Notes: generated from the letters alone by a model not told the origin. A DNA stretch of 20,000 nucleotides from an uncultured virus (IMG/VR IMGVR_UViG_3300008120_010307) (IMGVR_UViG_3300008120_010307), one strand, 5' to 3'; counted from the stretch's first letter, positions 1-18,905 are shown. Translations and numbers: made by a program.

Positions 1-1
1 A

Positions 2-2023
2 GACACAGGTAATACGGGGGCTCAGGGTGCTGTGGGGCCACAAGGAGCAACTGGTCCGACAGGACTTTCAGGTGCTCAAGGTGCCCAAGGTGGGGTAGGA
101 CCGACAGGGGCTACAGGACCACAAGGAGCTCAAGGACCTGCGGGTAATACGGGTCATTCTGGTGCACAAGGTGCTACAGGACCAACAGGGCCTGGAGGTA
201 ACACAGGTGCTCAAGGGGCGGTTGGACCGAAAGGGGCTACAGGACCTCAGGGAGCTCAAGGACCCGCAGGTGGTACAGGTAACACAGGGGCTCAGGGTGC
301 CACAGGACCACAAGGTTCACAAGGGGCGGGTGGTGGAACAGGTCATCCAGGTGCCCAAGGTCCCCAAGGAGCGATAGGACCACAAGGTTCACAAGGAGCC
401 ACAGGACACACTGGTGCTCAAGGCCCACAAGGTGCCACAGGACCACAAGGCTCACAAGGGGCTACAGGACATCCTGGTGCCCAAGGTAGTCAGGGTGCGG
501 CCGGACCAAAAGGACCTAATGGATTCACAGGTCATCCTGGAGCGCAAGGACCGCAAGGTTCAGCGGGAGCAACGGGTGCTCAAGGTCAGACAGGTCATCC
601 GGGGGCACAAGGTGCAGGTGGACCTACTGGGTCTCAAGGACAAGGGGGTGGTACAGGACATCCTGGAGCTCAAGGTGCCATAGGACCCAAAGGACCTCAA
701 GGACCTACAGGTGCTACTGGCCATCCTGGTGCTCAAGGTGCTGGTGGAGGTACTGGTAACGAGGGGGCACCAGGTTTCACAGGACATCCAGGTGCACAAG
801 GTGCTACAGGACCAGGAGGTAGTCCGGGTGCTCAGGGTTCACAAGGTTCCCAAGGACCTCAAGGAGCTCAAGGAAATACCGGTCCGACCGGCGTACCGGG
901 AGCTACGGGGCATCCTGGTGCTCAAGGAGCGGTCGGTCCAACTGGCCCACAAGGTCCGTCAGGTAATACAGGACATCCTGGTGCACAGGGAGCAACGGGT
1001 CCTACAGGACCTCAAGGAAATACAGGTGCCACGGGTGCTATTGGACCCCAAGGTGCGGGAGGTGCCACAGGCTCACAAGGGGCTGTAGGACCTCAAGGAG
1101 CAACTGGAGCCACAGGAGCCCAAGGTCCACAAGGTCCAGGTGGTCCTACAGGACCTGGCGGGGCACAAGGTGCTCAAGGAGGAGGAGGTGCCACAGGACC
1201 TCAAGGACCACAAGGTCCAAAGGGACCTCAGGGTGCTACAGGTCCTACAGGGGGTCCTGGTCCAACTGGACCACAAGGTCCTCAGGGACCAACAGGAGCA
1301 CCTGGACCTACAGGTGCCACAGGACCACAAGGTCCTACAGGTGGTCAAGGTACACAAGGCTCATTAGGTGCAACAGGAGGGCAGGGTGCTCAAGGTTCCC
1401 AAGGAGCTGTTGGACCTGGAGGTGTAACATGTCAACTGAATAGTATTATTGCTCTTACAGGAAGTAGAAACCCATGTGTAGGTGTTTGTAATATCACTGT
1501 ACCCAACGTTTATCCATACACTCAAACTGCTTACACAGCCACACAAAACAAATATTTCGATGCTACGAATTGTTCAAATGGTACTTGTGATTGGAATACT
1601 TATAACTGGGAACAATGGAATAGTGCATGTTATTCATTAAACGCCACTTGTGGTAATGGTACCTATCAGCAGGCTTGTGCTTATTCTGACGTGAAACTTA
1701 AAACAGGTATTGAAACCTTGAAAGATTCTCTTATAAAAATATTGGAAATAGAAACTGTTGAGTATGATTGGAACGAAAAAAATTGGGGTACCAAAGAAGA
1801 GTATGAATATTTTGCTCAGATGGGAAGATTACATCAGATAGGTCTAATTGCACAAAACGTAAGAATTCATTTCCCTGAAGCTGTTGGAATCGGTCCTGAT
1901 GGATATTATTACATTGACTACAAGAAATTAAATTCTGTTGTAGTTGAAGGTATAAAAGAACAACAAGTATTTATTGAAGAGATAACTAAACAAGTAGACG
2001 AATTAGAAATTAAATTGAGATAA
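2..2023 (+). CDS. Collagen-like phage fibre protein 1 (5'-truncated by the window) with Cys-rich head and C-terminal S74-type intramolecular chaperone
   Basis: Frame is open from base 2 ([12 protein letters not shown]...), so the GTG at 32 is not the true start. Uninterrupted Gly-X-Y runs to about 1429 and an 8-Cys segment spans 1430-1684. It is followed by [10 protein letters not shown]...EYDWN...IGLIAQNV...FPEAV...IDYKKL...EGIKEQQ, the S74 chaperone pattern. Confidence 0.9.
8..1429 (+). repeat. Coding Gly-X-Y repeat with a 7-triplet (63 nt) super-period marked by GHP
   Basis: His-containing triplets fall at positions 14, 35, 42, 49, 56, 63, 70, 77, 84, 98 and 105, counted from nt 35. Confidence 0.9.
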
Positions 2024-5007
2024 TGCCATCTAATGTAATTATATATCCTACCGGTAGAACGTGGAACACTGACCCTCATTTTATTTTTGATGATGGAACT
2101 AATAAATTACAATTCAACGTTTTAACTGACGCAATAAGTCTGTCTGCTGGGTCAATTTCAAATAATTTTGTAATTGGTACAAAAGGTTCAGACAATGGTG
2201 TCACAACCTCAGGGGCTTCCGCACAGTCACTATATTTCAACGCCTCACAATTCATAGGTTCTGGAGGTGTTTGGGTCGGACCAACTGCCGGTATCGCTGG
2301 TGCTCAGGGAGCTCAAGGTGCTCAGGGAGCCCAAGGTGGTCAGGGAGCTCAAGGAGCTCAAGGTGCAAATACAGGAGCTCAAGGTGCTACAGGTGCCCAA
2401 GGAGCAACAGGCGCACAAGGTGCGGCAAACACAACACAAGGTGCTCAAGGTACAATTGGGTCTCAAGGAGCTCAGGGTGCCACAGGAGCTCAGGGTGGAA
2501 ATACGGGTGCTCAAGGAGCCACAGGAGCTCAAGGTAACCAAGGAGCTCAAGGTGCTCAAGGAGGAACAGTTGGAGCTCAGGGTGCTCAGGGTGGTCAGGG
2601 AGCTCAAGGTGCTCAAGGTGCTCAAGGTGCAAACACAGGTGCTCAGGGTGCGACAGGTCCCCAAGGAGCCCAAGGAGCGGTAGGTGCTACAGGAGGAGTT
2701 CAAGGTGCTCAAGGTGCCGTCGGTGCCACAGGTGATTTAGGTGCTCAGGGAGCTCAAGGAGCCAATACCGGAGCCCAAGGTGCTCAAGGTGCACAGGGAA
2801 CTCAAGGTGCACAAGGTGCTCAGGGAGGAAATACTGGTGCACAAGGTGCTCAGGGTACTCAGGGTACACAAGGTGCTACAGGTGCTCAAGGAGGAGTACA
2901 AGGTGCTCAAGGTGCTATAGGTACTACAGGACCACAAGGTGCTCAAGGGGCCCAAGGGGCAAACACAGGAGCTCAAGGTGCTCAAGGTGGTCAAGGTGCT
3001 CAAGGAGCTCAAGGTGCTCAAGGAGGAGTACAAGGTGCTCAAGGGGCTACAGGTCCTACGGGGGTACAAGGAGCACAAGGTGCACAAGGAGGAGTACAAG
3101 GAGCACAAGGTGCAACAGGACCTCAAGGAGCTCAAGGGGCTCAGGGATTACAAGGTGGACTTCAAGGTGCCCAAGGTGCAACAGGTGCTCAAGGTGCACA
3201 AGGTTCTACAGGTGCTCAAGGAGGTACCCAAGGAGCTCAAGGTGCCACAGGACCACAAGGTGCACAAGGAGCAATAGGAGCTCAAGGAGGAGTACAAGGT
3301 GCTCAGGGTGCAACAGGAGCAGCGGGAGCTCAAGGTGCTCAAGGAGCCCAAGGTGCAAATACAGGTGCTCAAGGCGCCACAGGACCTCAAGGTGCTCAGG
3401 GGGCGACAGGAGCCCAAGGGGGTGTACAAGGTGCTCAAGGCGCCACAGGTCCTCAAGGTGCTCAAGGTGCTCAGGGGGCTCAAGGTGCAAATACAGGAGC
3501 TCAGGGTGCTACAGGTCCTCAAGGTGCTCAAGGTGCTCAGGGAGCCCAGGGTGCCAGTCCAGGTGCTCAGGGCGCTCAAGGTCCAAAAGGACCTCAAGGT
3601 GCTCAAGGAGCCCAAGGTGGAAGTGCAGGTGCCACGGGTGCGCAAGGTGCAACAGGTCCTCAAGGAGCTCAAGGTGCCCAAAGTGGTATAACAGGACAGG
3701 CAGGAGCTCAGGGTGCTACAGGTCCCCAAGGGGCACAAGGTGCTCAAGGTGGAAGTGCCGGTGCTACAGGAGCAGTCGGTGCACAAGGAGCTACAGGAGC
3801 ACAAGGAGCCCAAGGTGCTAATCAAGGAGCACAAGGTGCTACGGGTGCTACAGGAGCTCAAGGTGCTCAAGGTGCTCAAGGTGCTAATCAAGGAGCCCAA
3901 GGTGCGACAGGTCCACAAGGTGCTCAGGGTTCACAGGGTGCACAAGGTGCTAATCAGGGAGCACAGGGGGCTCAAGGAGCTCAAGGTGCTCAAGGTTCTC
4001 AGGGAGCACAAGGAGCCAATCAGGGTGCACAAGGTGCTACAGGTCCACAAGGTGCACAAGGTGCAATTGGACCAAATAATACGACACAAGGTGCTCAAGG
4101 TGCTCAGGGAGGTCAAGGTACTCAGGGAAGTCAAGGAGCACAGGGTGCTAACCAAGGCGCTCAAGGGGCACCTGGAGTTCAAGGAGCTCAAGGAGCACAA
4201 GGTGCACAGGGTGCTAATCAAGGGGCTCAGGGAGCACCTGGAGTTCAAGGAGCTCAAGGTGCTCAAGGTTCTCAAAGTGCTACTTCGGGAGCACAAGGTT
4301 CTACAGGACCTCAAGGTGCTCAAGGTTCTACAGGACCCGGTCCTGGTCCGCAAGGAGCCCAAGGTCCACAAGGATTGACTGGAGGTGGAGGGAACACAGG
4401 TGCACAAGGGTCCCAAGGAGCTACAGGAGCCACGGGTCCTACAGGTGCTCCTGGTGGAACAGGAGCCACAGGTGCTCAAGGAGCCACAGGATTTGCTGGA
4501 AGCACTCAGGGTGCTCCAGGTGTACCAGGACCACAGGGGGCTCAAGGTCCGACAGGTGTTGGTGGTGCCACAGGCCCAACAGGCCCAACAGGTTTCAAGG
4601 GGAATACAGGCCCAACAGGCCCAACAGGTGCCACAGGTGCTCAGGGAGCACAAGGCGCTAAGTCAGATAAAAGATTAAAAGATAATATAGTTGAATTCAA
4701 AGAACCTCTCACCCGTCTGAAACAAATCCAAGGTGTTAAATTTACTTGGGACCATGAACATCCTAAAATTAAATTTCATAAGCACCTGAATGCTAAAGAA
4801 GCGTTCACAGGTGATACTTATGGATTCATAGCTCAAGATGTAGAAAAAGTATTTCCTGAGATTGTTGACACTGACCCAACTGATGGATACAAATCTATGG
4901 ATTATGGACTCTTGGTTAGTTTAGCCTTCGCATCAATTAAAGAGAATCAAAAAAGAATATTGTCAGTGAAAGATAGAATAAATAGATTAAAACAAGTAGT
5001 GAACTAA
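2023..5007 (+). CDS. Collagen-like phage fibre protein 2 with periodic interruptions and C-terminal S74-type chaperone
   Basis: TAATG overlap with the upstream gene. About 90 aa N-domain, Gly-X-Y region 2290-4662, then SDKRLKDNI...FTWD...[16 protein letters not shown]...MDYGLL. Confidence 0.92.
2290..4662 (+). repeat. Coding collagen repeat with a 22-aa (66 nt) unit: six triplets plus one 4-residue unit
   Basis: Units end in GANT, GGNT, GGTV, GGVQ, GASP, GGSA or GANQ every 22 residues through most of the region. Confidence 0.9.
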
Positions 5008-8000
5008 TGGCATCATACGTAGTATATTCAGGGACGAGTTATCTAAATGCGTGTAATTCTGTGGCATCACAGACTATTTATACACCGTGTCCATCACTAA
5101 GTGGAGGTTGTGTAGTCTATACAGATGCAGGTTATACTAATGTTATTACTTTCTCTCCATTATTACCTAATTTATATCTAAAGGATTCTGTTGATACAAC
5201 GGTTTGGAAGATAAATAGGACAGGAACTGTCACGGAGGTTAGAAAATGTACTGAATTTTCAGGTGATGAAAATATAATTGTTTATCCTGATGGAGCCAAT
5301 TTTCAACTTATAGATTCTGGAGGAACTGCCACTAACTGGTATATGGAGAATGGTGAGTTGAAATTTGGAACTTTAACTTCCACTTTAGCAAGAATAAGTA
5401 CTTCCTATCCAAACCTCAGAGTCAGTGGGGGGTCAATAACACTTACTAACAAACTTGCAAATGCCTCGGGAGATTTAATAAATTCAACAGGATGGGTCGG
5501 AGCTAAATTACCTCAAGGTCCAACGGGTGCTCAAGGTTCACAAGGTTCTACTGGTGCTCAAGGAGCTCAAGGGGGTCAAGGAGCACAGGGTACCCAAGGT
5601 TCAACAGGTGCCCAAGGTTCTCAGGGTGCTCAAGGGGGACAAGGTGCTCAAGGTGCTCAAGGGTCACAAGGACCTACAGGTGCACAAGGTTCACAAGGTG
5701 GTCAAGGTTCACAAGGCTCACAAGGTTTTACAGGTGCTCAGGGTTCACAAGGAGCTCAAGGAGGACAAGGTGCTCAGGGTTCACAAGGAACTTTGGGACC
5801 CACAGGAGCTCAAGGTTCTCAAGGTGGTCAAGGAGCCCAAGGAGCCCAAGGTTCAACAGGTGCTCAAGGTTCGCAAGGAGCACAGGGTGGACAGGGCGCT
5901 CAAGGTTCACAAGGGGCTAAAGGTCTCACAGGTGCTCAAGGGGCACAAGGTGGACAAGGTGCCCAAGGTGCTCAAGGTTCCCAAGGTACAACAGGAGCCC
6001 AAGGTTCCCAAGGGGGACAAGGTGCTCAAGGTGCTCAAGGCGCAGTTGGTCCTACAGGTGCTCAAGGAGCTCAGGGTGGACAAGGGGCTCAAGGAGCTCA
6101 AGGGGCTGTCGGTCTCACAGGAGCTCAAGGAGCTCAAGGTGGGCAAGGTGCTCAAGGAGCACAAGGGGCTCTCGGTCCTACAGGAGCTCAAGGTTCCCAA
6201 GGTGGACAGGGTGCTCAAGGAGCACAAGGTTCACAAGGTTTAACAGGTGCGCAAGGGTCCCAAGGTGGTCAAGGAGCTCAAGGAGCTCAGGGAGGACAAG
6301 GTGCTCAAGGTGCCCAAGGTCCTAAAGGTCCACAAGGTGCTCAAGGAGCCCAAGGTGCTCAAGGTTCAACAGGAGCCCAAGGTTCCCAAGGTGGAACAGG
6401 AGCCCAAGGTGCTCAAGGTTCAACAGGAGCCCAAGGTTCACAAGGTTCACAAGGTGGAACAGGAGCCCAAGGTGCTCAAGGTTCAACAGGAGCCCAAGGT
6501 TCACAAGGTTCCCAAGGAGGACAAGGTGCCCAAGGGGCTCAAGGTACAACAGGTGCCCAAGGAGCTCAAGGAGCTACAGGAGGTCAAGGTGCTCAGGGTT
6601 CTCAAGGACCCACAGGAGCCCAAGGTTCTCAAGGTGCCGGAGGAGGACAAGGTGCACAAGGAGCTCAAGGTATAGTTGGAGCCCAAGGTGCTCAAGGTGG
6701 AGGTGGAGGACAGGGTGCACAAGGAGCACAAGGAACGACAGGTCCCGTAGGTGCACAAGGTTCACAAGGTGGGCAAGGTGCTCAAGGTTCCCAAGGTGCA
6801 CAAGGTGCCACAGGAGCTCAAGGTTCTCAGGGCGTCGCCGGAGCTCAAGGTGCTCAAGGTGCTCAAGGAGCTGTTGGTAGTCAAGGTTCACAAGGAGGAC
6901 AGGGTGCACAAGGAGCTCAAGGTTCACAAGGAGCTCAAGGTGCAACTGGTCCTGGTGGCGGACAAGGTGCTCAGGGAGCACAAGGAGCCACAGGTTCACA
7001 AGGTGCTCAAGGTGGAGGTGGTGGACAAGGTGCCCAAGGTGCTCAAGGGCCCGTCGGTTCACAAGGTTTTCAAGGAACAACTGGAGGTCAAGGTGCACAA
7101 GGTGCGCAAGGACCTACTGGACCTACAGGTATCACAGGACCTAAAGGGGGTCAAGGTGCACAAGGTGCTCAGGGAGGACAAGGTGCACAGGGACCACAAG
7201 GTCATATCGGTGCAAACGGTGCAACTGGTGTTCCTGGTCCTATTGGTCCCAAAGGACCTACGGGTCCTACGGGAGGTCAAGGTGCTCAAGGAGCTCAAGG
7301 ACCTGGTGGTGCTCAAGGGGCTCAAGGTCCTACGGGAGGTCAAGGTGCTCAAGGAGCTCAAGGACCTGGTGGTGCTCAAGGGGCTCAAGGTCCTACGGGA
7401 GGTCAAGGTGCCCAAGGTCCCAAAGGTCCAATAGGTGGACAAGGTTCTCAAGGTCCCACAGGGGCTCAGGGTACCGCCGGAGGACAAGGTTCTCAAGGCG
7501 GTGGTGGTGCCCAAGGTGCTCAAGGTGCTCAAGGTCCGCAAGGAGGCCAAGGTGCTCAAGGCGGTGGTGGTGCCACAGGAGCTCAAGGACCTCAGGGGGG
7601 TCAAGGTGCCCAAGGACCACAAGGTGGTCAAGGTCCACAAGGTGCACAAGGTGCAACCGGTCCAAATGGTTTACAAGGTGCTCAAGGTGCACAAGGTACC
7701 ACTGGTTCTGACCTAAGATTAAAAAAGGACGTAAAAGAAATACAATCCCCACTAGAAAAAGTCCTGAAATTGAGAGGTGTTTCATTCTATTGGAATAAAT
7801 TAAATGATGAAACATCCCAATCAGGTAAACATGATATTGGATTCATTGCCCAAGAAATAGGTCATATATTACCTGAATTGGTTTTCAAGAAAAACACCGA
7901 GAACGCATATTTCATGGTAAAATATGCTGAAGTAATAGCTGTTTGTTTAGAAGCCATTAAAGAACAATCCTTGATTTTGGAATCTAAAGAAATAAAACTT

Positions 8001-8042
8001 GATGAGTTAGAGACAATAGCCAAGGAAAGAGGACTTATTTAG
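5007..8042 (+). CDS. Collagen-like phage fibre protein 3 with N-terminal Cys domain and C-terminal S74-type chaperone
   Basis: TAATG overlap. 170 aa N-region, 243 Gly-X-Y triplets (5517-7703), then SDLRLKKDV...FYWN...IGFIAQEI...LPELV...VKYAEV...EAIKEQ. Confidence 0.92.
5517..7703 (+). repeat. Coding Gly-X-Y repeat with a 7-triplet super-period marked by GGQ
   Basis: GGQ at triplets 7, 14, 21, 28 and onward. The 2187 nt equal exactly 243 triplets. Confidence 0.9.
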
Positions 8043-8890
8043 ATTTCGGTCTTTTGAATTAAATCTCTTATTTCGAAACCAGTTTGGTATAACATCGACA
8101 GAAATTTTTTCCAAATTTCTGGGTTATACTTTTTAATCAATTCAACATAATAAATGTAGTAAGGTTCTTCTCCTCCTCTCTCAGACATAAAATCTGCAAG
8201 TTGAGGATTATCGGTGGTTAAATTTTTGAAAACTCTGATAAGGTCATTTCCCAAATGTTCATCATTTATTCTAAATAAAATATCCTTCGAGAGTTTAGAT
8301 AGTGGGTCACCCTTGGCAAAATAATTGATTATATTTTTTAATGATTTTTCTAAAAATTGTAGGTTTTCAATTTTTCTGTTTCTTTTAACTCTTCTTTCAA
8401 ATTCGAGAACCAAACCCTCCAAAAATTCATTTGAAATTGCAAAAAATTCTATTGGATGACCCCAATAATCTTTATCTGATTTCTCATTGTAAGTCACCAT
8501 ATATTTGGGACTAAACAAATGAGATTGTGTTGGGTCACTGGCATGTATCATTTCATGATATAGTGTAAGATAAAGTGTTTTTTTTGACTCGTAGTGTTTT
8601 GGATTTACTTCGATTACAATATCTGCCGGGTCGACTGACTTTTGAGGTTTTGTACCCATCTGACCCATGTAGGGTAGTCTTGGGTTTACCACGACTCTAG
8701 CTAAACCCTCTACTCCATCGGCTAATTTAAAAGGAATGACATCAACTAGTTCTTTTCCTTTATAAGGTTTATTTCTATCAGACCATAATTTTTCTGTGAC
8801 GGATTTCATTCTATCTCTCACATCATCAGAAAATTTATATCTCTGTGCCTCCAATATTAGATTGGTGATTATATTTCTTATTTTAGTCAT
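8039..8890 (-). CDS. Hypothetical protein with HExxH zincin-like motif (putative metallopeptidase)
   Basis: [12 protein letters not shown] plus a downstream HPIEFFA glutamate. The start was moved to the ATG at 8890, which overlaps the upstream TGA as ATGA. Confidence 0.7.
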
Positions 8891-9669
8891 TTTTGTAAAT
8901 CTACCCCCCAATTTATTGGAATCTCTTTAAGACTTATTTTACTTACGAATTTATCAAAAGCGTTCTTGAAGGTCACCTGAGCTTTCTTGATGTCTTTAAT
9001 TCTTGCCATATCAGGTAAAATCCCTGTAGATAAATATGCTTGAATCTCATCATCAATTACATTTTCACCATAACCCATGTTTTTGATTTTTCTTGTCATG
9101 GAATCTAATGTAGATGGATTTAGGTTATTGATATTATAAGATTGTAAGTTTTTATAGTTAGGTGAACTATACCACAACCCATGTGCTAGTTCATGATAGA
9201 TTAAACTCAAGTCCTCTCCATCTGTTTGGTCGATACCGATTAAATAAAAATTGTTGTTACCTGTTTTTTCTTTTATGGTATCAATAATTGAAAACATAAT
9301 AAGGTCAAAATAATTTATGTCAGGAATCACTTTTATACACGATTCGATTGAATCACACGGTAAATTATAACCAGACCAATCTTCATGATATGTGAAAATG
9401 TCATTCTTGGTTTTTTCCTTATAGAATTTTACAAAGTCAACCCACTTGAAGCCTTGTCCTCTGAATGTCTCTGAGTCTGACTCATAAAATTCCTGATAAC
9501 GCATGAAAACCCGGGCACGTAGTTTGTCATCTTTGATTACAACGGCAAAAATCTTTGGGAATATCTCAAACAATCTAATCTTAGATAGAATGTTTTTAAT
9601 ATTCTTCGGGGGGTTTTTAGGTGGACTTTGAACCCTCTCATGAATGGTATTTATACTTTTATTATTCAT
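8887..9669 (-). CDS. Hypothetical protein with HExxH motif (putative metallopeptidase)
   Basis: LIYHELAHGLWY with downstream DDEIQAY. Its start overlaps the stop of the upstream gene. Confidence 0.7.
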   Translation of the reverse strand: MNNKSINTIHERVQSPPKNPPKNIKNILSKIRLFEIFPKIFAVVIKDDKLRARVFMRYQEFYESDSETFRGQGFKWVDFVKFYKEKTKNDIFTYHEDWSGYNLPCDSIESCIKVIPDINYFDLIMFSIIDTIKEKTGNNNFYLIGIDQTDGEDLSLIYHELAHGLWYSSPNYKNLQSYNINNLNPSTLDSMTRKIKNMGYGENVIDDEIQAYLSTGILPDMARIKDIKKAQVTFKNAFDKFVSKISLKEIPINWGVDLQK

Positions 9670-10652
9670 CAGAAAAAATCACTGAAATACATGTTTATAT
9701 TTTTATCGACCTCTCTACTATCGGGGTAGTCAGAAATCCTTGGGTACAAACAATCATTGTTTTCGTCTAATATTCTAATAAAATACGCTTCATCTTCAAT
9801 TGCGTTTGAATACTTGTTATGTAAGAAATCGTAAATTTGTCCTTCGAAATCCTTTATTTTCATTTTGTATTGATACTTCATAGTATCTTTTTTATAAGGA
9901 TGTGGGGATGATATCCACTCACCCTCATAGAAATAATCACCCAATTCATTCATTATATTTTTATAAATTTGACTCTCATATGCTGAATTGTAAGCGTCGG
10001 AGTGTATTCTATACAAATCACCTTCAATATCCAAATATTTTTTCATCAATTCATTGAATGTATCTCTATCATCCACAATTCTGGCTATGTTTGATTCGTT
10101 TACTTCAACGTAGTCTGGATGACCTTGTTCAGAGGCAATCAATTCTAGTTCCTCAGTCTCTGTTTCTACCCGTTCATTTTTTAAATCATCTATAATCTTC
10201 TTGTATAAAGTTTTCAAATTTTCTTGATTTAATTCCTCAACCACGTCTCTATGAACATCATCAGTTGTTTCTGAATAATATTCAAACCAATCATTATCCT
10301 CACCCAAGATATTCTCAATGGTGTCTCGTGAAAAATCTCTACTACTATCACAAAAAAGTGTTGCTAATTCTTTTCTGTCGTCCAAAATCAAATAAGCATC
10401 ACCTTTTTCATCAATTTGAACATCTCCTAAAATGCGATTCATGTATTTGTAAAACTCTTGTTTATCATTCTCCATGGTCCAAATGAAATATTGGTTTTGC
10501 CATTCTCTACTGTCATTGGCTAATGGGTCTAATAAATGAAAAAGTTTTTTCGATTTAAGCACCGCAAAAAAATCATCATAATCATTGTTGAAGTATTTCA
10601 ACGCCCATGTGTCACCATCATTAAAATCACTTATAATTTCTTGCCAATTCAT
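9669..10652 (-). CDS. Acidic hypothetical protein
   Basis: 327 aa D/E-rich ORF coupled to the next gene, with a TATTTATA motif just upstream. Confidence 0.8.
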   Translation of the reverse strand: MNWQEIISDFNDGDTWALKYFNNDYDDFFAVLKSKKLFHLLDPLANDSREWQNQYFIWTMENDKQEFYKYMNRILGDVQIDEKGDAYLILDDRKELATLFCDSSRDFSRDTIENILGEDNDWFEYYSETTDDVHRDVVEELNQENLKTLYKKIIDDLKNERVETETEELELIASEQGHPDYVEVNESNIARIVDDRDTFNELMKKYLDIEGDLYRIHSDAYNSAYESQIYKNIMNELGDYFYEGEWISSPHPYKKDTMKYQYKMKIKDFEGQIYDFLHNKYSNAIEDEAYFIRILDENNDCLYPRISDYPDSREVDKNINMYFSDFF

Positions 10653-10655
10653 ACA

Positions 10656-10663
10656 TATAAATA
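10656..10663 (-). promoter_or_regulatory. TATTTATA putative phage promoter motif
   Basis: Lies 3 nt upstream of the ATG at 10652. The same motif recurs before other transcription units. Confidence 0.55.
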
Positions 10664-10664
10664 C

Positions 10665-10693
10665 AAAAAAAGGGACAAATTTTGTCCCTTTTT
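10665..10693 (-). terminator. Intrinsic terminator, potentially bidirectional
   Basis: Inverted repeat AAAAAGGGACAAA-T-TTTGTCCCTTTTT with T-tails on both strands, directly downstream of the 10713-10883 gene. Confidence 0.8.
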
Positions 10694-10712
10694 ATAAAAT
10701 ACCTTTTTCAGA

Positions 10713-10883
10713 TTATTTTCTGACCCAACCATTAGATTTTTGAGCCGTATAATATTTTTCAATTGTTTTTTTCACGGCATCTTTAACCTGTTCTTGTGGA
10801 GTTTTTTGAGCTTCCTGAAGTTGTTGGTTATTCACTTGAGGTTGAGGAGTTTGATTACCTTTGTTTTTACAACCGCATCCCAT
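10713..10883 (-). CDS. 56-aa micro-protein starting MGCGCKNK (absent from the ORF track)
   Basis: Translates as MGCGCKNKGNQTPQPQVNNQQLQEAQKTPQEQVKDAVKKTIEKYYTAQKSNGWVRK*. It has its own upstream TATTTATA and downstream terminator. Confidence 0.8.
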   Translation of the reverse strand: MGCGCKNKGNQTPQPQVNNQQLQEAQKTPQEQVKDAVKKTIEKYYTAQKSNGWVRK

Positions 10884-10911
10884 AATTTTTGATTTGAAAT
10901 AAGTTTATTGT

Positions 10912-10919
10912 TATAAATA
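10912..10919 (-). promoter_or_regulatory. TATTTATA putative phage promoter motif
   Basis: 28 nt upstream of the ATG at 10883. Confidence 0.55.
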
Positions 10920-10949
10920 GTGTCGAATCGAAATATAAGAATGAAAAGA

Positions 10950-10957
10950 TATTTATT
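10950..10957 (+). promoter_or_regulatory. TATTTATT putative phage promoter motif
   Basis: 13 nt upstream of the ATG at 10971, divergent from the motif at 10912. Confidence 0.5.
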
Positions 10958-10970
10958 AAATAAAAATTAG

Positions 10971-12020
10971 ATGAAATTTTCCCAAATATTATCAGAAAAG
11001 GTTGATTACTCTGAGGAGTTGAAGGGTGATAGGAGAAGAGAGAACAAAGAGTGGGAACTTGATATCAATTGTCCACTTGAGGGTAGAAAGGCTTGGGCTT
11101 TGTTGTATTATTTAGAGTATGAGTCAGAGGTAGAGGTTCTCACACCCGAAGATTTGGAAAATAAAAAAAGAATTTCTGAAAAAATTGAGGAGTTGAACCA
11201 AACTTACAATACAACAGATGACGAAGATGAAAAAGCTGAATTATTGGATGAAATTTCTGATTTGGAAGACGAAATAGATGAATTCGATAATAAAATTGAT
11301 GTTTATGACATAATTCCAAACGGACAGTATTATGATATGACTCAATTTGAAATTCCCAAGGTAACGAGTAAAACATATGCAGTAGGTACAGAAACGGAGG
11401 TTCAAGAATCTGCGGAGGAATATGTAAGCCAGCTTATTGATGATATAGGTTACGAGGGATTTAGAAAAGGATTTATGGAAAATCACATCGATGAAGAAAA
11501 AGTTTTGAGTGAGTTTGAAAGTATTTTTGAAGACGATATCACGAATAATCCAGATGTGTATTTTGATGATGATGATAGAGAATTGTCTACTCAACAGAAG
11601 GAAAAAATAGAGATTTACAAAGAAAGAATATCTAAAGTTGAAGGACTCATTAGTTTGTTAGAAGAAAGACTTACAGGAGATGAAGATGTTGATGAATTGG
11701 TACAAGATAAAATCGATGAGTTACAAGAAGAAGTTGATGAAATGGAACAAGAAATAAGTGAAATTGAATCAAATCCTGAAGGGGATATCCCTCAACATTT
11801 GATTGATAGGGCTGTTGAGACAAAAATGACTGATATAAGTAGAAATCCCATCGAATATATGAATGATTATGGGATGGAAATCGATTATTATATTGACAGA
11901 GAAAGTTTTATAGATGGTGTAATCGACGAGGATGGATATGGGATGTTAGCCTCTTATGATGGTAACATGGACGAAAGAGAAGTTTTGGGACAATACTTTT
12001 GGGTATGTAGAATTGATTAA
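10971..12020 (+). CDS. Very acidic hypothetical protein with coiled-coil-like segments
   Basis: 349 aa ORF, extremely D/E-rich, with heptad-like stretches (ISEKIEELNQ; VQDKIDELQEEVDEMEQEISEIE). Confidence 0.8.
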   Translation: MKFSQILSEKVDYSEELKGDRRRENKEWELDINCPLEGRKAWALLYYLEYESEVEVLTPEDLENKKRISEKIEELNQTYNTTDDEDEKAELLDEISDLEDEIDEFDNKIDVYDIIPNGQYYDMTQFEIPKVTSKTYAVGTETEVQESAEEYVSQLIDDIGYEGFRKGFMENHIDEEKVLSEFESIFEDDITNNPDVYFDDDDRELSTQQKEKIEIYKERISKVEGLISLLEERLTGDEDVDELVQDKIDELQEEVDEMEQEISEIESNPEGDIPQHLIDRAVETKMTDISRNPIEYMNDYGMEIDYYIDRESFIDGVIDEDGYGMLASYDGNMDEREVLGQYFWVCRID

Positions 12021-12045
12021 ATTTTTTGGTTTAGTATTTTTAATT

Positions 12046-12831
12046 ATGCCGAGAAAGAAAAACATAAAATTCAAGTTAGACCCTGAATGGATGTTCAAAG
12101 AACCTTTGGATTTTGAATATAACAAATATACTGTCTTGGATTATATTCAAAAATGTGAGAAAAGATTTGACAAGCTTGAGATATATCCAGATTTTGTTGA
12201 GTTATCATTACACTTAGCAAATCTTCAATCCTTAGCCAAAGAAAATTTAATTCTTTTCACTACAAAAAAATTTGAATCTTGTGATGATGAAATTCTTCTA
12301 AAAGAATTATTACCAAAAAAACCAAGAGAACTTTCTCCTGAAGAAGAATCTGAACTTGATAAAACAATAAAATTCTCTGGTTCTAAACTTTTCGACACTT
12401 TTAATATTGGAAAATCTATTTGGAATTTAGCCTTCGACAACATTCATTTATCAATTAGAAAGAACAAGGAAAACATATCAACAGGTAGAGGATTTGTTTA
12501 TTTTTATTTCAAAGAAATTGAAAAACTTTTTATATGGGAGTATGAAATCAAAAAGTTAGATAAAGGTGAACAACAAACTAAGTTATATTTAAAATTACTT
12601 TACGAAGGACCCAAAACAGATATAGTAATAGGTAAACTTATTTTAGAAACCTCAACTTGGAAAGAAATATCTGGTTGTGAGTTATTACCTATATTCGAAG
12701 TAAAAACTTCCCAAAACTTCCCGATGGAACAAACTTTCATTCCAATGATGAAGAGAAAACTTATGACTTATGTTTATCAAATTGTCAACATGGAAATTCT
12801 AAAAAACTTTGACACTTCAATACAATTGTAA
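12046..12831 (+). CDS. Hypothetical protein
   Basis: Long ORF. The start was moved to the ATG at 12046 (MPRKKNIKF) to avoid a 65 nt overlap. Contains the motif DFEYNKYTVLDYIQ. Confidence 0.75.
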   Translation: MPRKKNIKFKLDPEWMFKEPLDFEYNKYTVLDYIQKCEKRFDKLEIYPDFVELSLHLANLQSLAKENLILFTTKKFESCDDEILLKELLPKKPRELSPEEESELDKTIKFSGSKLFDTFNIGKSIWNLAFDNIHLSIRKNKENISTGRGFVYFYFKEIEKLFIWEYEIKKLDKGEQQTKLYLKLLYEGPKTDIVIGKLILETSTWKEISGCELLPIFEVKTSQNFPMEQTFIPMMKRKLMTYVYQIVNMEILKNFDTSIQL

Positions 12832-12839
12832 TATATTTG
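12808..12839 (+). promoter_or_regulatory. Bacteroidota-type sigma-A promoter (-33 TTTG / -7 TAnnTTTG)
   Basis: TTTG at 12808-12811, a 20 nt spacer, and TATATTTG at 12832-12839, immediately upstream of the ATG at 12844. Confidence 0.7.
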
Positions 12840-12843
12840 TGTC

Positions 12844-13059
12844 ATGGGTTTCAATAAAAGATACGTGGATTCAAAAAATAGTATTTTCGCACTCGAATCT
12901 AATAATCTTAAAGGTTATTATGGTAAAAGCGATGCATTGATTTTCGAAGATTCTTTAAGTTCGAAAATTTACGACCTATACAAAGAAGGTAAGTCTGACA
13001 AAGAAATTTTATCAATTATAAACCAAAACATGGAGGAAAAAACCAATGAAGTGTATTAA
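12844..13059 (+). CDS. Hypothetical protein (71 aa)
   Basis: First ORF after the promoter and part of a tightly packed run. Confidence 0.7.
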   Translation: MGFNKRYVDSKNSIFALESNNLKGYYGKSDALIFEDSLSSKIYDLYKEGKSDKEILSIINQNMEEKTNEVY

Positions 13060-13291
13060 ATCAATCAAGGAAACCAAAGATGTTGCTCTCGGAACAATTA
13101 GGAGAGTCGAAGACAAAGTTGCAAACAACATGGTAGGTAACTATTGGGCTTACGTTTCTAAATCTGAGTGGAAAAAAGAAACAAGAAAATCCAAACCTAC
13201 CGAACAGGAAACTGAACAAGTTACTGAACAAGTAGAAAAGAAACCGTATAAAAAAGGACAACGTTCCGAAAAACATAAAAACAAAAAATAA
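13046..13291 (+). CDS. Basic hypothetical protein (81 aa)
   Basis: Lys-rich ORF with TAATG coupling to the next gene. Confidence 0.7.
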   Translation: MKCIKSIKETKDVALGTIRRVEDKVANNMVGNYWAYVSKSEWKKETRKSKPTEQETEQVTEQVEKKPYKKGQRSEKHKNKK

Positions 13292-13506
13292 TGGCAGAAG
13301 TAAAAAAACATTTAATCAAAATGCTTGAGCTTGAAGCTGAAGCACAGAAAGCCAAAGCTCTTCTAACTTTGGAACTATTATCTAACCACGCGGCAGGAAT
13401 AGGCGACCATTCAACAGGAGATTTCTACAAAAATGCAGAAGAAGCTCTACAAATGTTGGTTGACGCTGATGATAAACTTGAAGCGATAAAAAAATATTTT
13501 CTATGA
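13291..13506 (+). CDS. Hypothetical helical-hairpin phage protein with GIGDH motif
   Basis: Two amphipathic helices around AAGIGDHS. Coupled to neighbours by TAATG and ATGA overlaps. Confidence 0.75.
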   Translation: MAEVKKHLIKMLELEAEAQKAKALLTLELLSNHAAGIGDHSTGDFYKNAEEALQMLVDADDKLEAIKKYFL

Positions 13507-13709
13507 AAAGATTTACTATAACAGGTGTGAGAACTATCGATGAATATGTTACTTATACTGTCGAAGCGGAAACTGAAGATGAAGCAATTGAGATGGTTGA
13601 GAATGGTGAAGTTGATGATAACGATGACCATTGGCAACGTGAAACATCAGGAGGAGAAGATTATACCGTTACTAATGTTGAAGAATTAGAAGAAGATGAA
13701 GAAGAATAA
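13503..13709 (+). CDS. Small acidic hypothetical protein
   Basis: ATGA overlap. Contains VEAETEDEAIEMV, a pattern common in small phage proteins. Confidence 0.7.
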   Translation: MKRFTITGVRTIDEYVTYTVEAETEDEAIEMVENGEVDDNDDHWQRETSGGEDYTVTNVEELEEDEEE

Positions 13710-13827
13710 ATTTTTCAAAAAACTTGAGTGGTATTTTGATTACTACGTTGCCTATTTTCTCTACAATGGAAACAAACAAGACAGATACGTGCAGTACATG
13801 CAAAAAAAGTGGGGAGATAGAAAATAA
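13696..13827 (+). CDS. 43-aa aromatic-rich micro-protein (absent from the ORF track)
   Basis: Translates as MKKNKFFKKLEWYFDYYVAYFLYNGNKQDRYVQYMQKKWGDRK*. It fills the gap before the sulfotransferase domain. Confidence 0.6.
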   Translation: MKKNKFFKKLEWYFDYYVAYFLYNGNKQDRYVQYMQKKWGDRK

Positions 13828-13834
13828 TTATGGG

Positions 13835-14425
13835 CTGAATATTTCAGAGGAACACAAAACTTTTCTTTGGTTGTGGGCTAAAACCGGCACATCCCATTTG
13901 AAACAAAATATGAAATATTTTGGTTTCAATTTTTATATGTTCGATGGCGGTAAAAGAAGTTTTTTATCTAAAGGAATCACTCAGCAACACACTTGTCAAT
14001 TATTTGAAGGGCACCATGATTATAAGATGTTAGCTACGGCTAGAAATCCCTACTCAAGATATGTTTCTTTCTATATAATGGCAAAAAAGGATGAAGCAAC
14101 AATCGAAAATTTTGATGATTTTTTAGAAACACAAATATTTCATCATACAAATTTCGATTGTGTAACTTTTCACGATAGAATCCCTGATTATTTTGTTAGA
14201 GTTGAAAATTTATTCGAGGACTATTCCAAAATTCCTTTCGTTGTTAAAAGTGATTATTATAAATCAGGACTTTTGGAAGAATTTTGTAATAAAAAAATAA
14301 ATAAATCAAAGTTTGAAGTTGATTGGAAAGATTATTATAATCAATCAATGGCTGATTTAGTTTTTTATAACACTCAAAATTATTTTGAAATCTTAGGTTA
14401 CGATAAAAATTCTTGGAAAAAATAA
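13835..14425 (+). CDS. Sulfotransferase-family protein (Sulfotransfer_2-like); start uncertain (ATG 13766, CTG 13835, or out-of-frame ATG 13830)
   Basis: 5'-PSB-like LWAKTGTS, 3'-PB-like ARNPYSRYVSFY, DYFVRVENLFED, and C-terminal WKDYY...FEILGY. Confidence 0.8.
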   Translation: MNISEEHKTFLWLWAKTGTSHLKQNMKYFGFNFYMFDGGKRSFLSKGITQQHTCQLFEGHHDYKMLATARNPYSRYVSFYIMAKKDEATIENFDDFLETQIFHHTNFDCVTFHDRIPDYFVRVENLFEDYSKIPFVVKSDYYKSGLLEEFCNKKINKSKFEVDWKDYYNQSMADLVFYNTQNYFEILGYDKNSWKK

Positions 14426-14431
14426 AAATAT

Positions 14432-14656
14432 ATGAATACTGAAATGGTCAATGGACCGATTCACTACGGTGGTGCGGATAATCCTTATGAAGTGATTAAA
14501 GTTTGTGAAGCGTGGGGTTTGGATAAGGACGCATATTTGTTCAATGTTGTAAAATATATTGCTCGTGCCGGTATCAAAGACCCCTCTAAAGAACTCGAAG
14601 ACCTTAAAAAGGCTCAATTTTATTTGGATAGAAGAATTAAAAATTTGGAAAAATGA
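14432..14656 (+). CDS. DUF3310-family protein (SaV / T7 gp1.7 nucleotide kinase-like)
   Basis: MVNGPIHY...EVIKV...NVVKYIARAGIK...EDLKKAQFYL signature. Confidence 0.85.
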   Translation: MNTEMVNGPIHYGGADNPYEVIKVCEAWGLDKDAYLFNVVKYIARAGIKDPSKELEDLKKAQFYLDRRIKNLEK

Positions 14657-15093
14657 TTATTTGGCTAACAGGTCAACCTGGTTCGGGTAAAACAACTATC
14701 TGTGAACAGATTATGTCTATTCACACAGAGTTTTTCCATGTTGATGGGGATGACCTAAGAGATTTATTTGACAATAAAGATTACTCTAAAACAGGTAGAA
14801 GAAAGAATATTGAACTTGCTCAACAAATATCTCAATATCTTCACAACCAGGGAGTTGATGTTTTAGTATCTTTAGTTTCCCCATATAAAGACCAAAGGGA
14901 TAGGTTCAAGGAAAAGATGGGGGATGATTTGAGAGAAGTCTACGTTCATACATCAGAAAAAAGAGGTAGAGAACAATTCTTTGTTAAAGAATACAATGAA
15001 CCAACAGAAAACTATCTTGAGATTGATACAACCAATGAAAGTATAGTTGAGTCAGCAAAAAAAGTTTTAGATTATGCGAAAAATTCACGTTGA
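14653..15093 (+). CDS. cysC: Adenylyl-sulfate (APS) kinase
   Basis: IIWLTGQPGSGKTT P-loop, VDGDDLR, DYSKTGRRKNI, VSLVSPY, EVYV and YNEP...IDT. Confidence 0.85.
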   Translation: MIIWLTGQPGSGKTTICEQIMSIHTEFFHVDGDDLRDLFDNKDYSKTGRRKNIELAQQISQYLHNQGVDVLVSLVSPYKDQRDRFKEKMGDDLREVYVHTSEKRGREQFFVKEYNEPTENYLEIDTTNESIVESAKKVLDYAKNSR

Positions 15094-15475
15094 GGGTGAC
15101 CCGAAATTAAAAAATACTGGAGGTAAGCAATATTCTATGTTTGTGGGACGGTTCCAACCATTTCACGGGGGACATCGATGGATTGTGGATGAATGTCTGA
15201 ACGAAGGAAAAAATGTTTTAATTTGTATAAGAGATATTCAACCTGATGATAAAAATCCTTTTAGTGCTCAAGAAGTTGAATCCAATATCAAAAAAGAGTT
15301 GTGGAAATATTTGACCGACGAGAAAGTAAAAGTTATGATTATACCTGATATCGAATCTGTCAATTTTGGTAGAGGTGTTGGTTATGATATAATCGAACAC
15401 ATACCACCTCAAGAGGTTGGGGAGATATCTGCAACAAAAATTAGAGAAGAATTAAAAAAAGAAGGAAAATTATAA
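15074..15475 (+). CDS. HIGH-superfamily (cytidylyltransferase-like) nucleotidyltransferase
   Basis: GRFQPFHGGH, KNPFS and a C-terminal ISATKIR. Confidence 0.85.
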   Translation: MRKIHVEGDPKLKNTGGKQYSMFVGRFQPFHGGHRWIVDECLNEGKNVLICIRDIQPDDKNPFSAQEVESNIKKELWKYLTDEKVKVMIIPDIESVNFGRGVGYDIIEHIPPQEVGEISATKIREELKKEGKL

Positions 15476-16329: not shown

Positions 16330-16342
16330 TACCCCTTTTTTT
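16319..16342 (+). terminator. Intrinsic terminator
   Basis: AAAAGGGGT-AAT-ACCCCTTTTTTT overlapping the methyltransferase stop codon. Confidence 0.75.
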
Positions 16343-16352
16343 CTTTTCAGTA

Positions 16353-16360
16353 TATTTATA
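16353..16360 (+). promoter_or_regulatory. TATTTATA putative phage promoter motif
   Basis: Directly after the terminator and 14 nt before the ATG at 16375. Confidence 0.6.
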
Positions 16361-16374
16361 ATTAAATTATTTTG

Positions 16375-18903: not shown

Positions 18904-18905
18904 CT

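What the first reader, a model, noticed from the sequence alone, without database searches (positions are those of the whole stretch)
2..8042. Three tandem collagen fibre genes sharing a 7-unit register: candidate heterotrimeric phage collagen
Seen: three TAATG-coupled genes, each a long Gly-X-Y rod with its own S74-type chaperone. All three use a 7-Gly-unit period but mark it differently: GHP in chain 1, a 4-residue unit in chain 2 and GGQ in chain 3. Chains 2 and 3 have similar Gly-unit counts (roughly 250 versus 243) despite differing in length (791 versus 729 aa). Known: characterised S74 chaperones fold homotrimers, characterised prokaryotic collagens are homotrimers, and one strand of a 7/2 collagen helix repeats every 7 triplets. 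Inference: the three chains may co-assemble 1:1:1 or bundle in register, like animal heterotrimeric collagens. The marked positions could be complementary, for example Gly-Gly making room for the His or the inserted residue.
Basis: partly seen in the sequence, partly recalled or inferred. Interest (0 to 1): 0.8.

Follow-up and report, generated by a model that had tools for sequence, protein, structure and literature searches.

The report
Length-locked three-chain phage collagen fibre
Three neighbouring genes of an uncultured large phage encode collagen strands whose unit number and internal landmarks stay locked together in nearly every relative found, so they most likely wind into one mixed three-strand rope, a design documented so far only in animals.

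Summary
Window 2-8042 holds three TAATG-coupled genes, each a Gly-X-Y rod ending in a Peptidase_S74 self-cleaving chaperone. Each rod has a 7-unit period with its own mark: GHx in chain 1, a 4-residue unit in chain 2, GGQ in chain 3.

A sister contig (L227) gives full-length chain 1, with unit counts 254/253/253; the window's chain 3 lacks 8 triplets (245). Across 21 distinct relatives, always with three genes, the count ranges from 99 to 323. The three chains agree within 1 unit in 13 and within 2 in 16 (0 of 100000 permutations as tight).

The matched quantity is Gly units, not residues. The marks sit in cross-chain register, and shifts of phase and indels occur in all chains together.

Best reading (about 0.6): one A:B:C heterotrimeric triple helix of about 217 nm, assembled by three paralogous S74 domains. 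Rivals are an in-register bundle of homotrimers and three separate length-matched homotrimers. Nothing physical is shown, and 5 of 21 trios mismatch.

Searches of the paper library found no such phage collagen. This scan has noted the same trio on other DNA several times, with divided verdicts.

The parts
2..2023 (+). Chain 1 gene (c1), 5' end cut by the window; the full gene in sister contig L227 is 4203..7364, 1053 aa
8..1423 (+). Chain 1 Gly-X-Y rod in view: 157 uninterrupted triplets, GHx about every 7th
1424..1684 (+). Chain 1 Cys-rich domain (~87 aa) between rod and S74. No credible Pfam family (only a below-cut-off Med15_C hit). It is the only non-collagen part that would remain distal after cleavage
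1685..2020 (+). Chain 1 Peptidase_S74 / ICA domain with S-D-V-K-L-K motif; acidic C-terminal helix
2023..2289 (+). Chain 2 N-domain (type N2, ~89 aa, ends W-V-G); start codon inside TAATG
2290..4656 (+). Chain 2 rod: 249 raw units (253 from the W.G anchor); one 4-residue unit every 7th unit (66-nt DNA period)
4663..5004 (+). Chain 2 Peptidase_S74 domain, S-D-K-R-L-K directly after the rod; basic C-terminal helix
5007..5267 (+). Chain 3 N-terminal extension (~87 aa, four Cys). Seen here and in L227; the other 19 distinct trios start at the N3 domain
5268..5516 (+). Chain 3 N-domain (type N3, ends W-V-G)
5517..7706 (+). Chain 3 rod: 243 pure triplets (245 from the anchor), GGQ every 7th; lacks 24 aa present in L227
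7707..8039 (+). Chain 3 Peptidase_S74 domain, S-D-L-R-L-K; nearest solved chain 6f45_A (phage long tail fibre distal subunit)

Best explanation
The three translationally coupled genes each supply one strand (A, B, C) of a single heterotrimeric collagen fibre of a large T4-like phage.

Shown: each chain has a ~85-aa beta-rich N-domain ending in W-x-G (three paralogous types, one of each per genome). This is followed by a Gly-X-Y rod and a C-terminal S74/ICA self-cleaving chaperone with the Ser-Lys motif.

Also shown: the rods keep the same number of Gly units and the same placement of landmarks in most relatives.

Inferred:
- The three different S74 domains form a mixed trimer. Their terminal coiled-coil helices are acidic, basic and near-neutral.
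- That trimer sets the chain register, nucleates one A:B:C triple helix, and then cuts itself off.
- What remains is a fibre of about 217 nm, calculated from 253 units.
- Its proximal end is the mixed N1-N2-N3 domain. Its distal end carries only chain 1's Cys-rich knob.
- Every 7th unit is a three-chain node. Chain 1 has Asn or His at X, chain 3 has Gly at X, and chain 2 carries one extra residue in the next unit, which would bulge out without adding rise.
- The function is probably a long host-contacting fibre.
For: (1) Counts from the W.G anchor to the last rod Gly in 21 distinct trios. They are equal in L008 216/216/216, L018 99/99/99, L102 306/306/306, L105 169/169/169 and L177 161/161/161. 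They agree within 1 unit in 13 of 21 and within 2 in 16 of 21. L227, the window's sister, reads 254/253/253. The mean within-genome range is 4.95 (median 1) against 94.3 when permuted; 0 of 100000 permutations were as small.

(2) The matched quantity is Gly units, not residues. In the 16 matched trios chain 2 is 5-33 residues longer than chain 1, while the unit difference is -2 to +2.

(3) Cross-chain register.
- 66 of 75 c1 GHx units have c3 GGx at the same index (other lags 5-22).
- 68 of 75 have the c2 4-residue unit at index +1 (other lags 0-3).
- Same-genome pairings give 66, 68 and 248 coincidences, against cross-genome means of 19.9, 26.0 and 104.7 with maxima of 37, 48 and 160.
- In the window itself, 27 of 32 c2 insertions have c3 GG at index -1.
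- Over 282 nodes, c3 is GGQ in 69% (background 13%), and the c1 X residue is Asn or His in 59% (background Asn 13%).

(4) Coordinated change.
- The absolute phase takes three values, but c2 minus c3 equals +1 in 20 of 21 trios.
- L097 to L179 is +3 units in all three chains near index 127-134.
- L236 to L240 is +14 units in c1 and c2, using blocks of different sequence.

(5) Sporadic breaks coincide more often within genomes than across them: c1-c3 16 of 58 against a cross-genome mean of 3.8 (maximum 12).

(6) Every genome has one each of N1, N2, N3 and C1, C2, C3, even where their linkage is permuted, as in L017.

(7) All 42 gene junctions overlap or abut.

(8) The net charge of the last 30 aa of S74 differs by chain: c1 -4.0, c2 +2.2, c3 -0.8. 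In the MyRF ICA structure this helix forms the trimer's coiled-coil core (PMC8326128, passages).

(9) Complex prediction on N1+N2+N3 scored 0.74, with the best of 3 controls at 0.02. That mark was reached by 116 of 157 solved complexes and 2 of 215 mismatched pairs. The runs agree in at least 85% of contacts, and the partner's pLDDT is at least 73. Paralogues may pass even if each is in truth a homotrimer.
Against: - The ICA/S74 domain read about here (MyRF, PMC8326128 passages and abstracts listed) is a homotrimer, and the phage ones are too as far as I recall. [quoted passage not shown]
- 5 of 21 trios mismatch by 9-26 units: L006 157/172/170, L021 134/160/146, L024 314/316/323, L236 143/143/127 and L242 154/139/163. 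The window itself is 253 against 245. Sister contigs differ (window against L227; L236 against L245), so some mismatches may be assembly errors or strain variants. That is not shown.
- Only 11-28% of sporadic breaks coincide.
- Chain 1's 85-98-aa Cys-rich domain lies between the rod and S74 in 18 of the 20 c1 chains where the Ser motif was found. In a mixed trimer it would have to loop out.
- The rule that a 5-residue unit counts as 2 units was chosen after seeing the data. With the other rule, 9 of 21 trios agree within 1 and 14 of 21 within 2.
- Relatives are not independent samples.
- No physical or expression data exist.
Confidence: 0.6

Rival explanations
1. Three separate homotrimeric fibres, one per gene, are each folded by its own S74 chaperone. 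A common functional constraint, such as a required reach, keeps them at the same length.
For: The S74/ICA domains and prokaryotic collagens described in the papers read are homotrimers. Each chain carries a complete N-domain and chaperone of its own. Mismatches of 9-26 units in 5 of 21 trios, and 8 units in this window, seem to be tolerated. Three earlier notes of this scan on other DNA reached this verdict.
Against: - Equality to within 0-1 unit over a range of 99-306 units in 13 of 21 trios is far tighter than a reach constraint needs.
- It is Gly units that match, not residues or physical length.
- This model does not predict landmark positions, phase shifts or small indels coupled between chains.
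- After cleavage, chains 2 and 3 would be bare rods with no distal domain.
Confidence: 0.2
2. Each gene makes a homotrimer, and the three homotrimers pack side by side in register into a nine-chain bundle. The 7-unit nodes are the lateral contact points.
For: This explains the register coupling and equal unit numbers while keeping the known homotrimeric behaviour of S74.
Against: - Chain 2 has 5-33 more residues than chain 1. In a homotrimer, where all three strands carry the extra residue, the nodes should drift out of spatial register, unless the insertion adds no rise.
- I know of no precedent (recall).
- The N-domains of the three types are predicted to form one mixed trimer: score 0.74, best of 3 controls 0.02; the mark was reached by 116 of 157 solved complexes and 2 of 215 mismatched pairs.
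Confidence: 0.15
3. The matching is not functional. It arises from chance, from assembly artefacts in repeats, or from copying between the paralogous rods.
For: The rods are tandem repeats, which short-read assemblies can collapse. The window and L227 differ by 24 aa inside a repeat.
Against: - 0 of 100000 permutations reach the observed tightness.
- An artefact would break equality, not create it.
- Chain-specific marks persist, and the blocks gained in parallel differ in sequence between chains.
- Paralogous rods are only ~74-75% identical at the DNA level.
Confidence: 0.03

Closest known systems
Phage fibres and spikes with a C-terminal Peptidase_S74 intramolecular chaperone (PF13884): phage S16 long tail fibre distal subunit (PDB 6f45); K1F/NF endosialidase and T5 pb1 (these two recalled)
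   Same: A C-terminal ~110-aa domain with the S-D-x-R-x-K Ser-Lys motif. Pfam match above the cut-off in all three chains. Nearest solved sequence is 6f45_A, E 5.5e-7. PHROG tail-fibre families match this part.
   Different: Known examples are single-gene homotrimers that fold beta-helical or beta-structured fibres. Here three paralogous S74 types are kept as a set, each directly after a collagen rod. Their terminal helices have conserved and different charge.
'Bacteriophage collagen': collagen-like tail-fibre proteins of phages and prophages (Smith et al. 1998 as cited in PMC1079782; P-SSM2 orf28; E. coli O157 prophage collagens, PMC3368898, seen in a listing only)
   Same: Gly-X-Y repeats in phage fibre candidates. 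Proline is low and there is no sign of hydroxylation machinery in the window.
   Different: Those are described as single proteins. No length-locked three-gene set and no cross-chain register has been described in the papers found.
Animal heterotrimeric collagens with a cleaved C-propeptide (type I), and the complement C1q A/B/C stalk
   Same: Three different chains of equal helix length. A non-collagen C-terminal domain would select the chains and is then removed. An extra residue in one chain only sits opposite small residues in the others.
   Different: There is no homology of the terminal domains. Removal is autocatalytic (S74), not by a separate protease. The one-chain insertions are strictly periodic (every 7 units), with about 30 per fibre. 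Co-assembly here is inferred, not shown.
Prokaryotic collagen-like proteins (Scl1/2, BclA)
   Same: A Hyp-free Gly-X-Y triple-helix sequence with a globular trimerisation domain.
   Different: Those are homotrimers (PMC8968730, passages) and far shorter. None has a paralogous length-matched partner set.

Membership tests
Peptidase_S74 / ICA intramolecular chaperone domain | Match to PF13884 above the curated cut-off, at the C-terminus | tested here: met
   37.1, 49.0 and 52.7 bits against a cut-off of 22. Exactly 3 hits in each of 5 relatives' contigs.
Peptidase_S74 / ICA intramolecular chaperone domain | Ser-Lys catalytic dyad motif (S-D/E-x-R/K-x-K) at the start of the domain | tested here: met
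   Present in all three window chains and in 62 of 63 chains of 21 trios.
Peptidase_S74 / ICA intramolecular chaperone domain | Trimer-dependent autoproteolysis; homotrimeric assembly | not testable with these tools
   Known from MyRF and endoNF structures (PMC8326128, passages). Whether the trimers here are homo or hetero is the open question.
Collagen triple-helix repeat (PF01391) | Long runs of Gly at every third residue | tested here: met
   Chain 1: 157 uninterrupted triplets. Chain 3: 243 uninterrupted triplets. Chain 2: 217 triplets plus 32 longer units. Pfam E values of 1e-54 or better.
Collagen triple-helix repeat (PF01391) | Actual triple-helix formation | not testable with these tools
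   Needs CD melting, electron microscopy or a solved structure.
Heterotrimeric (A:B:C) collagen | Different gene products with equal helix length | tested here: met
   13 of 21 trios agree within 1 unit and 16 of 21 within 2. L227 reads 254/253/253. The window's own chain 3 is 8 units short.
Heterotrimeric (A:B:C) collagen | Interruptions and landmarks aligned between chains | tested here: inconclusive
   Periodic nodes are aligned (66 of 75, 68 of 75, 248 of 371). Sporadic breaks are aligned only in part (8 of 58, 16 of 58, 11 of 98), though above the cross-genome controls.
Heterotrimeric (A:B:C) collagen | Physical 1:1:1 co-assembly with a defined stagger | not testable with these tools
   The only evidence is a prediction for the N-domains: score 0.74, best of 3 controls 0.02; the mark was reached by 116 of 157 solved complexes and 2 of 215 mismatched pairs. 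It cannot separate hetero- from homotrimers.
T4-like (Gp23 capsid) phage | Gp23-type major capsid protein in the genome | tested here: inconclusive
   The window and its own assembly hold no hallmark gene that I could search. Relative G002 (317 kb, CheckV 100%), which carries the same trio, has Gp23 at E 3.3e-62. The 4 other partial contigs gave no hit. No NCLDV capsid was found, but that search's controls rang nowhere.

The most novel reading that the evidence does not exclude
This would be a natural A:B:C heterotrimeric collagen outside animals. Three paralogous, self-cleaving S74 domains act as a viral counterpart of the procollagen C-propeptide: they choose one chain of each kind, set the register and then remove themselves. 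A one-chain bulge every seven units makes a regularly noded fibre of 85-280 nm, possibly curved or supercoiled. Its length evolves by adding or dropping the same block in all three genes.
Probability: 0.55. Interest if true: 0.9.

Novelty: new variant of a known kind. Interest (0 to 1): 0.8.

Why it matters
Every prokaryotic and viral collagen characterised so far is described as a homotrimer (PMC8968730, passages). Heterotrimeric collagen is treated as an animal invention. A phage fibre made of three different strands would overturn that view.

It would also show that the S74/ICA chaperone can work as a heterotrimer. The same review notes that making recombinant heterotrimeric collagen with the right stoichiometry and stagger is hard. 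This system could offer a compact, self-removing registration domain that works in bacteria.

The family also gives a natural data set of at least 21 length variants for studying how three genes with tandem repeats are kept in step.

Tried and rejected
- Megablast of window 8000-20000 against the phage collection: no match.
- tblastn of chain 3 against the phage collection: only the S74 tail matched, covering 10% of the query in 556 records.
- The search for related loci with the chain 3 N-terminal 170 aa: 29 pattern hits, none confirmed.
- PHROG and Pfam scans of neighbouring genes gave no virion-structure context.
- Monomer fold of the N2 domain: mean pLDDT 61.3. Foldseek against the PDB gave 0 matches at E <= 0.001. 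The weak top rows were trimeric fibre proteins and are not usable. Where the fibre attaches to the virion therefore stays open.
- Linker idea: the distance from the last rod Gly to the catalytic Ser is 3 in 21 of 21 c2 chains and 2 in 14 of 21 c3 chains. I considered this as an encoded one-residue stagger. L105 reads 2/3/3 and several c3 chains read 1, 3 or 4, so I do not use it as evidence.
- Charge of the S74 terminal helix: 33 non-trio S74 tails average -0.39 (sd 1.74). c1 and c2 lie towards the extremes. I could not assign e/g heptad contacts, so this stays suggestive only.
- Copying between paralogous rods was considered and rejected, because the blocks gained in parallel differ in sequence.
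- The 7/2-helix explanation of the period could not be tested. The period is at least a DNA repeat of 63/66/126 nt.
Full report
WHAT IS IN THE WINDOW

Three + strand ORFs fill 2-8042: 2..2023 (5' open, 673 aa), 2023..5007 (994 aa) and 5007..8042 (1011 aa). Both junctions read TAATG.

Each product matches Pfam Collagen (E 2.5e-54 to 1.1e-68). Each also ends in Peptidase_S74 (37.1, 49.0 and 52.7 bits against a cut-off of 22). All three keep the S-D-x-R/K-x-K Ser-Lys motif.

The S74 part of chain 3 is closest to the solved phage S16 long tail fibre distal subunit (6f45_A, E 5.5e-7). It also resembles the MyRF ICA domain (7dc3).

The rest of the window is 28-37% G+C, against 45-60% in the collagen genes. 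The direct cause is the Gly, Ala and Gln codon content of the rods. The rest of the window carries kinase-, cytidylyltransferase-, DNA methylase-, NUDIX- and DUF192-type genes.

- Chain 1 shows 157 uninterrupted triplets in view.
- Chain 2 shows 249 units: 217 triplets, 29 four-residue units and 3 seven-residue units.
- Chain 3 shows 243 uninterrupted triplets.

The 7-unit period is visible in the DNA: 66 nt x 30.5 copies, 126 nt x 12.1 copies, and 63 nt x 3.5 copies. It is also visible in the marks. By index modulo 7, 11 of 11 GHx units, 29 of 32 four-residue units and 27 of 38 GGx units fall in one class each.

RELATIVES

The window's own assembly is not held. I collected loci L002-L305 in these ways:
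- through a neighbouring gene;
- through alignments of the C-terminal domains of chain 1 and chain 3 in viral contigs;
- through an alignment of the chain 2 C-terminal domain in viral and metagenome contigs.

Chains were typed by BLASTP of their last 112 aa and of their N-domains.

34 loci hold a complete trio. After removing 13 duplicate views of the same contigs, 21 distinct trios remain. I left out clusters in which a contig end cuts a chain, for example L178, L185, L226, L228-L235, L241 and L244-L263.

No locus with these orthologues showed a fourth collagen ORF. Each of five relatives' contigs has exactly three S74 matches. One of them is a 317-kb record rated 100% complete.

That 317-kb record has a T4-type Gp23 capsid gene (E 3.3e-62). 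The family is therefore a jumbo T4-like phage lineage. The window itself carries no hallmark gene.

The cluster is not universal. Of 15 loci sharing the neighbouring gene, 13 have no collagen ORF within reach.

FULL-LENGTH CHAIN 1

Metagenome locus L227 is 98.9% identical to window 1-7651 and extends 5.3 kb upstream. Its chain 1 is 1053 aa.

Counted from the conserved W-x-G at the end of the N-domain to the last rod Gly, L227 has 254/253/253 units. The window's chain 2 has 253 units. Its chain 3 has 245, because it lacks 24 aa that L227 has inside a repetitive stretch. This is either a strain variant or an assembly collapse.

LENGTH LOCKING

Across the 21 trios the count runs from 99 to 323.

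- Exactly equal: L008 216/216/216, L018 99/99/99, L102 306/306/306, L105 169/169/169 and L177 161/161/161.
- Within 1 unit in 13 of 21 trios, and within 2 in 16 of 21.
- Mismatched: L006 157/172/170, L021 134/160/146, L024 314/316/323, L236 143/143/127 and L242 154/139/163.

Pearson r is 0.9925-0.9952. The mean within-genome range is 4.95 units (median 1) against 94.3 after permutation. 0 of 100000 permutations were as small.

I adopted the counting rule (5-8 residues = 2 units) after seeing the data. If a 5-residue unit counts as one, 9 of 21 trios agree within 1 and 14 of 21 within 2. The first, unanchored parse already gave r > 0.99 on 13 trios.

What is matched is the number of Gly units, not residues. 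In the 16 matched trios chain 2 is 5-33 residues longer than chain 1, while the unit counts differ by at most 2.

REGISTER

Indexing every rod from the W-x-G anchor gives these coincidences:

| Pair | In register | Other lags |
|---|---|---|
| c1 GHx and c3 GGx, same index | 66 of 75 | 5-22 |
| c1 GHx and c2 four-residue unit, index +1 | 68 of 75 | 0-3 |
| c2 insertion and c3 GGx, index -1 | 248 of 371 | 14-75 |

Lags of +/-7, 14 and 21 score lower (42-55 of 75). Cross-genome pairings give far fewer coincidences: means of 19.9, 26.0 and 104.7, and maxima of 37, 48 and 160.

In the window itself, 27 of 32 chain 2 insertions face a chain 3 GG unit at index -1.

Over 282 nodes in the 16 matched trios, chain 3 is GGQ in 69% (background 13%). 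The chain 1 X residue is Asn in 41% or His in 18% (background Asn 13%). The units of chain 2 flanking the insertion are GAQ in 71% and 78%.

Phase alone could be inherited, if arrays change only by whole 7-unit blocks. The following points cannot be explained that way:
- The absolute phase takes three values: (2,3,2) in most trios, (1,2,1) in L227 and L177, and (-,4,3) in L020 and L237. Even so, chain 2 stays one unit after chain 3 in 20 of 21 trios.
- The first periodic node lies at 9/8, 17/16, 24/23 or 52/51 (c2/c3) in different genomes.
- In L006 all three chains switch from period 7 to period 14 at the same index.
- Between close relatives, L097 to L179 is +3 units in all three chains near index 127-134. 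L236 to L240 is +14 units in chains 1 and 2, with blocks of different sequence.

Sporadic breaks also coincide (within 1 unit) more often within a genome than across genomes:
- c1-c3: 16 of 58 against a cross-genome mean of 3.8 (maximum 12);
- c1-c2: 8 of 58 against 3.4;
- c2-c3: 11 of 98 against 5.4.
Most sporadic breaks, however, do not coincide.

OTHER ANATOMY

- Each genome has one N-domain of each of three paralogous types and one S74 domain of each of three types. In L017 the pairing of N- and C-types and the gene order are permuted, but the set is complete.
- All 42 junctions in the 21 trios overlap or abut, from -11 to 0 nt. This fits equimolar, coupled translation.
- Chains 2 and 3 run straight from the rod into the S74 cleavage site. 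Chain 1 has a Cys-rich domain of 85-98 aa in between, in 18 of the 20 c1 chains where the Ser motif was found.
- The last 30 residues of S74 are acidic in chain 1 (mean -4.0, range -6 to -1), basic or neutral in chain 2 (+2.2, range 0 to +5) and near neutral in chain 3 (-0.8). In the MyRF ICA structure this segment forms the central parallel three-helix coiled coil that drives trimerisation (PMC8326128, passages). 33 non-trio S74 tails average -0.39, sd 1.74.
- The rods are poor in proline (5-9%) and almost uncharged.
- At 0.286 nm per residue (a recalled value), 253 units is about 217 nm.

PREDICTION

N1, N2 and N3 (119 aa each, L227 sequences, alignments of 21 rows) were folded together. The score was 0.74, with the best of 3 controls at 0.02. 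That mark was reached by 116 of 157 solved complexes and 2 of 215 mismatched pairs. The runs agree in at least 85% of contacts, and the partner's pLDDT is at least 73.

This shows that a mixed N-trimer is plausible. Paralogues of a homotrimer might score equally, so the result does not separate the models.

INTERPRETATION

Equal Gly-unit numbers to within a unit, coupled landmarks, and coordinated small changes all call for physical alignment of the three chains along their whole length. One A:B:C triple helix is the simplest such arrangement.

It also explains three further points:
- units match, not residues: two uninterrupted strands dictate the rise and the extra residue of chain 2 bulges out;
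- a complete set of three N-types and three C-types is always kept;
- only one chain needs a distal domain.

A bundle of three homotrimers in register is the main alternative. Three independent fibres fit the known behaviour of S74 but not the register data.

Against the heterotrimer stand four points:
- the S74/ICA domain read about here and the prokaryotic collagens described in the papers read are homotrimers, and the phage S74 domains are too as far as I recall;
- five trios and this window's chain 3 mismatch;
- sporadic breaks coincide only in part;
- there is no physical evidence.

LITERATURE

- The searches 'collagen-like / intramolecular chaperone / phage' (6 papers) and 'collagen-like / tail fiber / heterotrimer' (5 papers) listed nothing on a multi-chain phage collagen. 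I saw titles and abstract starts only.
- Sullivan et al. 2005 mention single Gly-X-Y tail-fibre candidates (PMC1079782, passages).
- The C1q comparison and the 7/2 versus 10/3 remark come from recall.

EARLIER NOTES OF THIS SCAN

The same kind of trio has been reported on other DNA at least a dozen times, with divided verdicts. My tests agree with the notes that found joint gain and loss of 7-unit blocks. For this family they disagree with the note that the breaks do not line up.

Noticed in passing
window 7530-7560 (chain 3 rod) versus L227: The window's chain 3 lacks 24 aa (8 triplets) that the 98.9%-identical sister contig has inside a repetitive GGQ/GPG stretch. It is either a strain variant or an assembly collapse. 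It alone makes the window's count 245 instead of 253.
   Followed up: yes
window 5007-5267: Chain 3 here (and in L227) has an extra ~87-aa N-terminal extension with four Cys, ahead of the conserved N3 domain. The other 19 distinct trios start directly at the N3 domain.
   Followed up: partly
L227 2774-3403 (just upstream of chain 1): Thioredoxin (E 6.6e-18) and glutaredoxin (E 5.1e-10) genes lie directly upstream of the collagen cluster. A thioredoxin-domain ORF sits at the same place in L018. Whether they serve chain 1's Cys-rich domain or nucleotide metabolism is unknown.
   Followed up: no
window 8039-10652 (- strand): Three convergent ORFs of 290, 260 and 327 aa have no family apart from a weak Peptidase_M91 hit (E 7e-4, below the cut-off). 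Three minus-strand ORFs of similar size (284, 262, 334 aa) lie at the same place in L023, and a relative of the 327-aa one lies near the trio in L006 and L008. That 327-aa ORF has 15 relatives, 13 of them without a nearby collagen cluster.
   Followed up: partly
G002 (contig of L023) 6-2954 and 315477-317258: The 317-kb relative has further long collagen reading frames (1360 and 767 aa) at both contig ends, with no S74 match. G003 and G004 also end in collagen repeats. These may be a fourth, very large collagen gene at which assemblies break.
   Followed up: no
L017 4273-13082; L264: In these relatives the gene order is c2, c1, c3, and the N-domain types are permuted relative to the C-domain types, yet the unit counts still match (L017 222/222/223).
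   Followed up: partly
L017 c2, L023 c1, L024 c1, L242 c1: One chain only carries globular inserts of about 95 to about 250 aa after the first few triplets of the rod. With the insert left out, the unit counts still match the other two chains in L017, L023 and L024.
   Followed up: partly
L103-L156, L192-L221: Another phage group encodes single giant collagen+S74 proteins of about 2350-2950 aa instead of a trio.
   Followed up: no
L052 4843-12590; L044: More distant clusters also have three or four tandem collagen genes. In L052 the rods have 48, 48 and 51 units by the first parser, and large, different C-terminal domains follow them.
   Followed up: no
window 13439-20000: This stretch is 99% identical to an 8952-base viral record (G001). 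The stretch holds kinase, cytidylyltransferase, N6/N4 DNA methylase, DUF5856, DHH-like, DUF192 and NUDIX genes.
   Followed up: no
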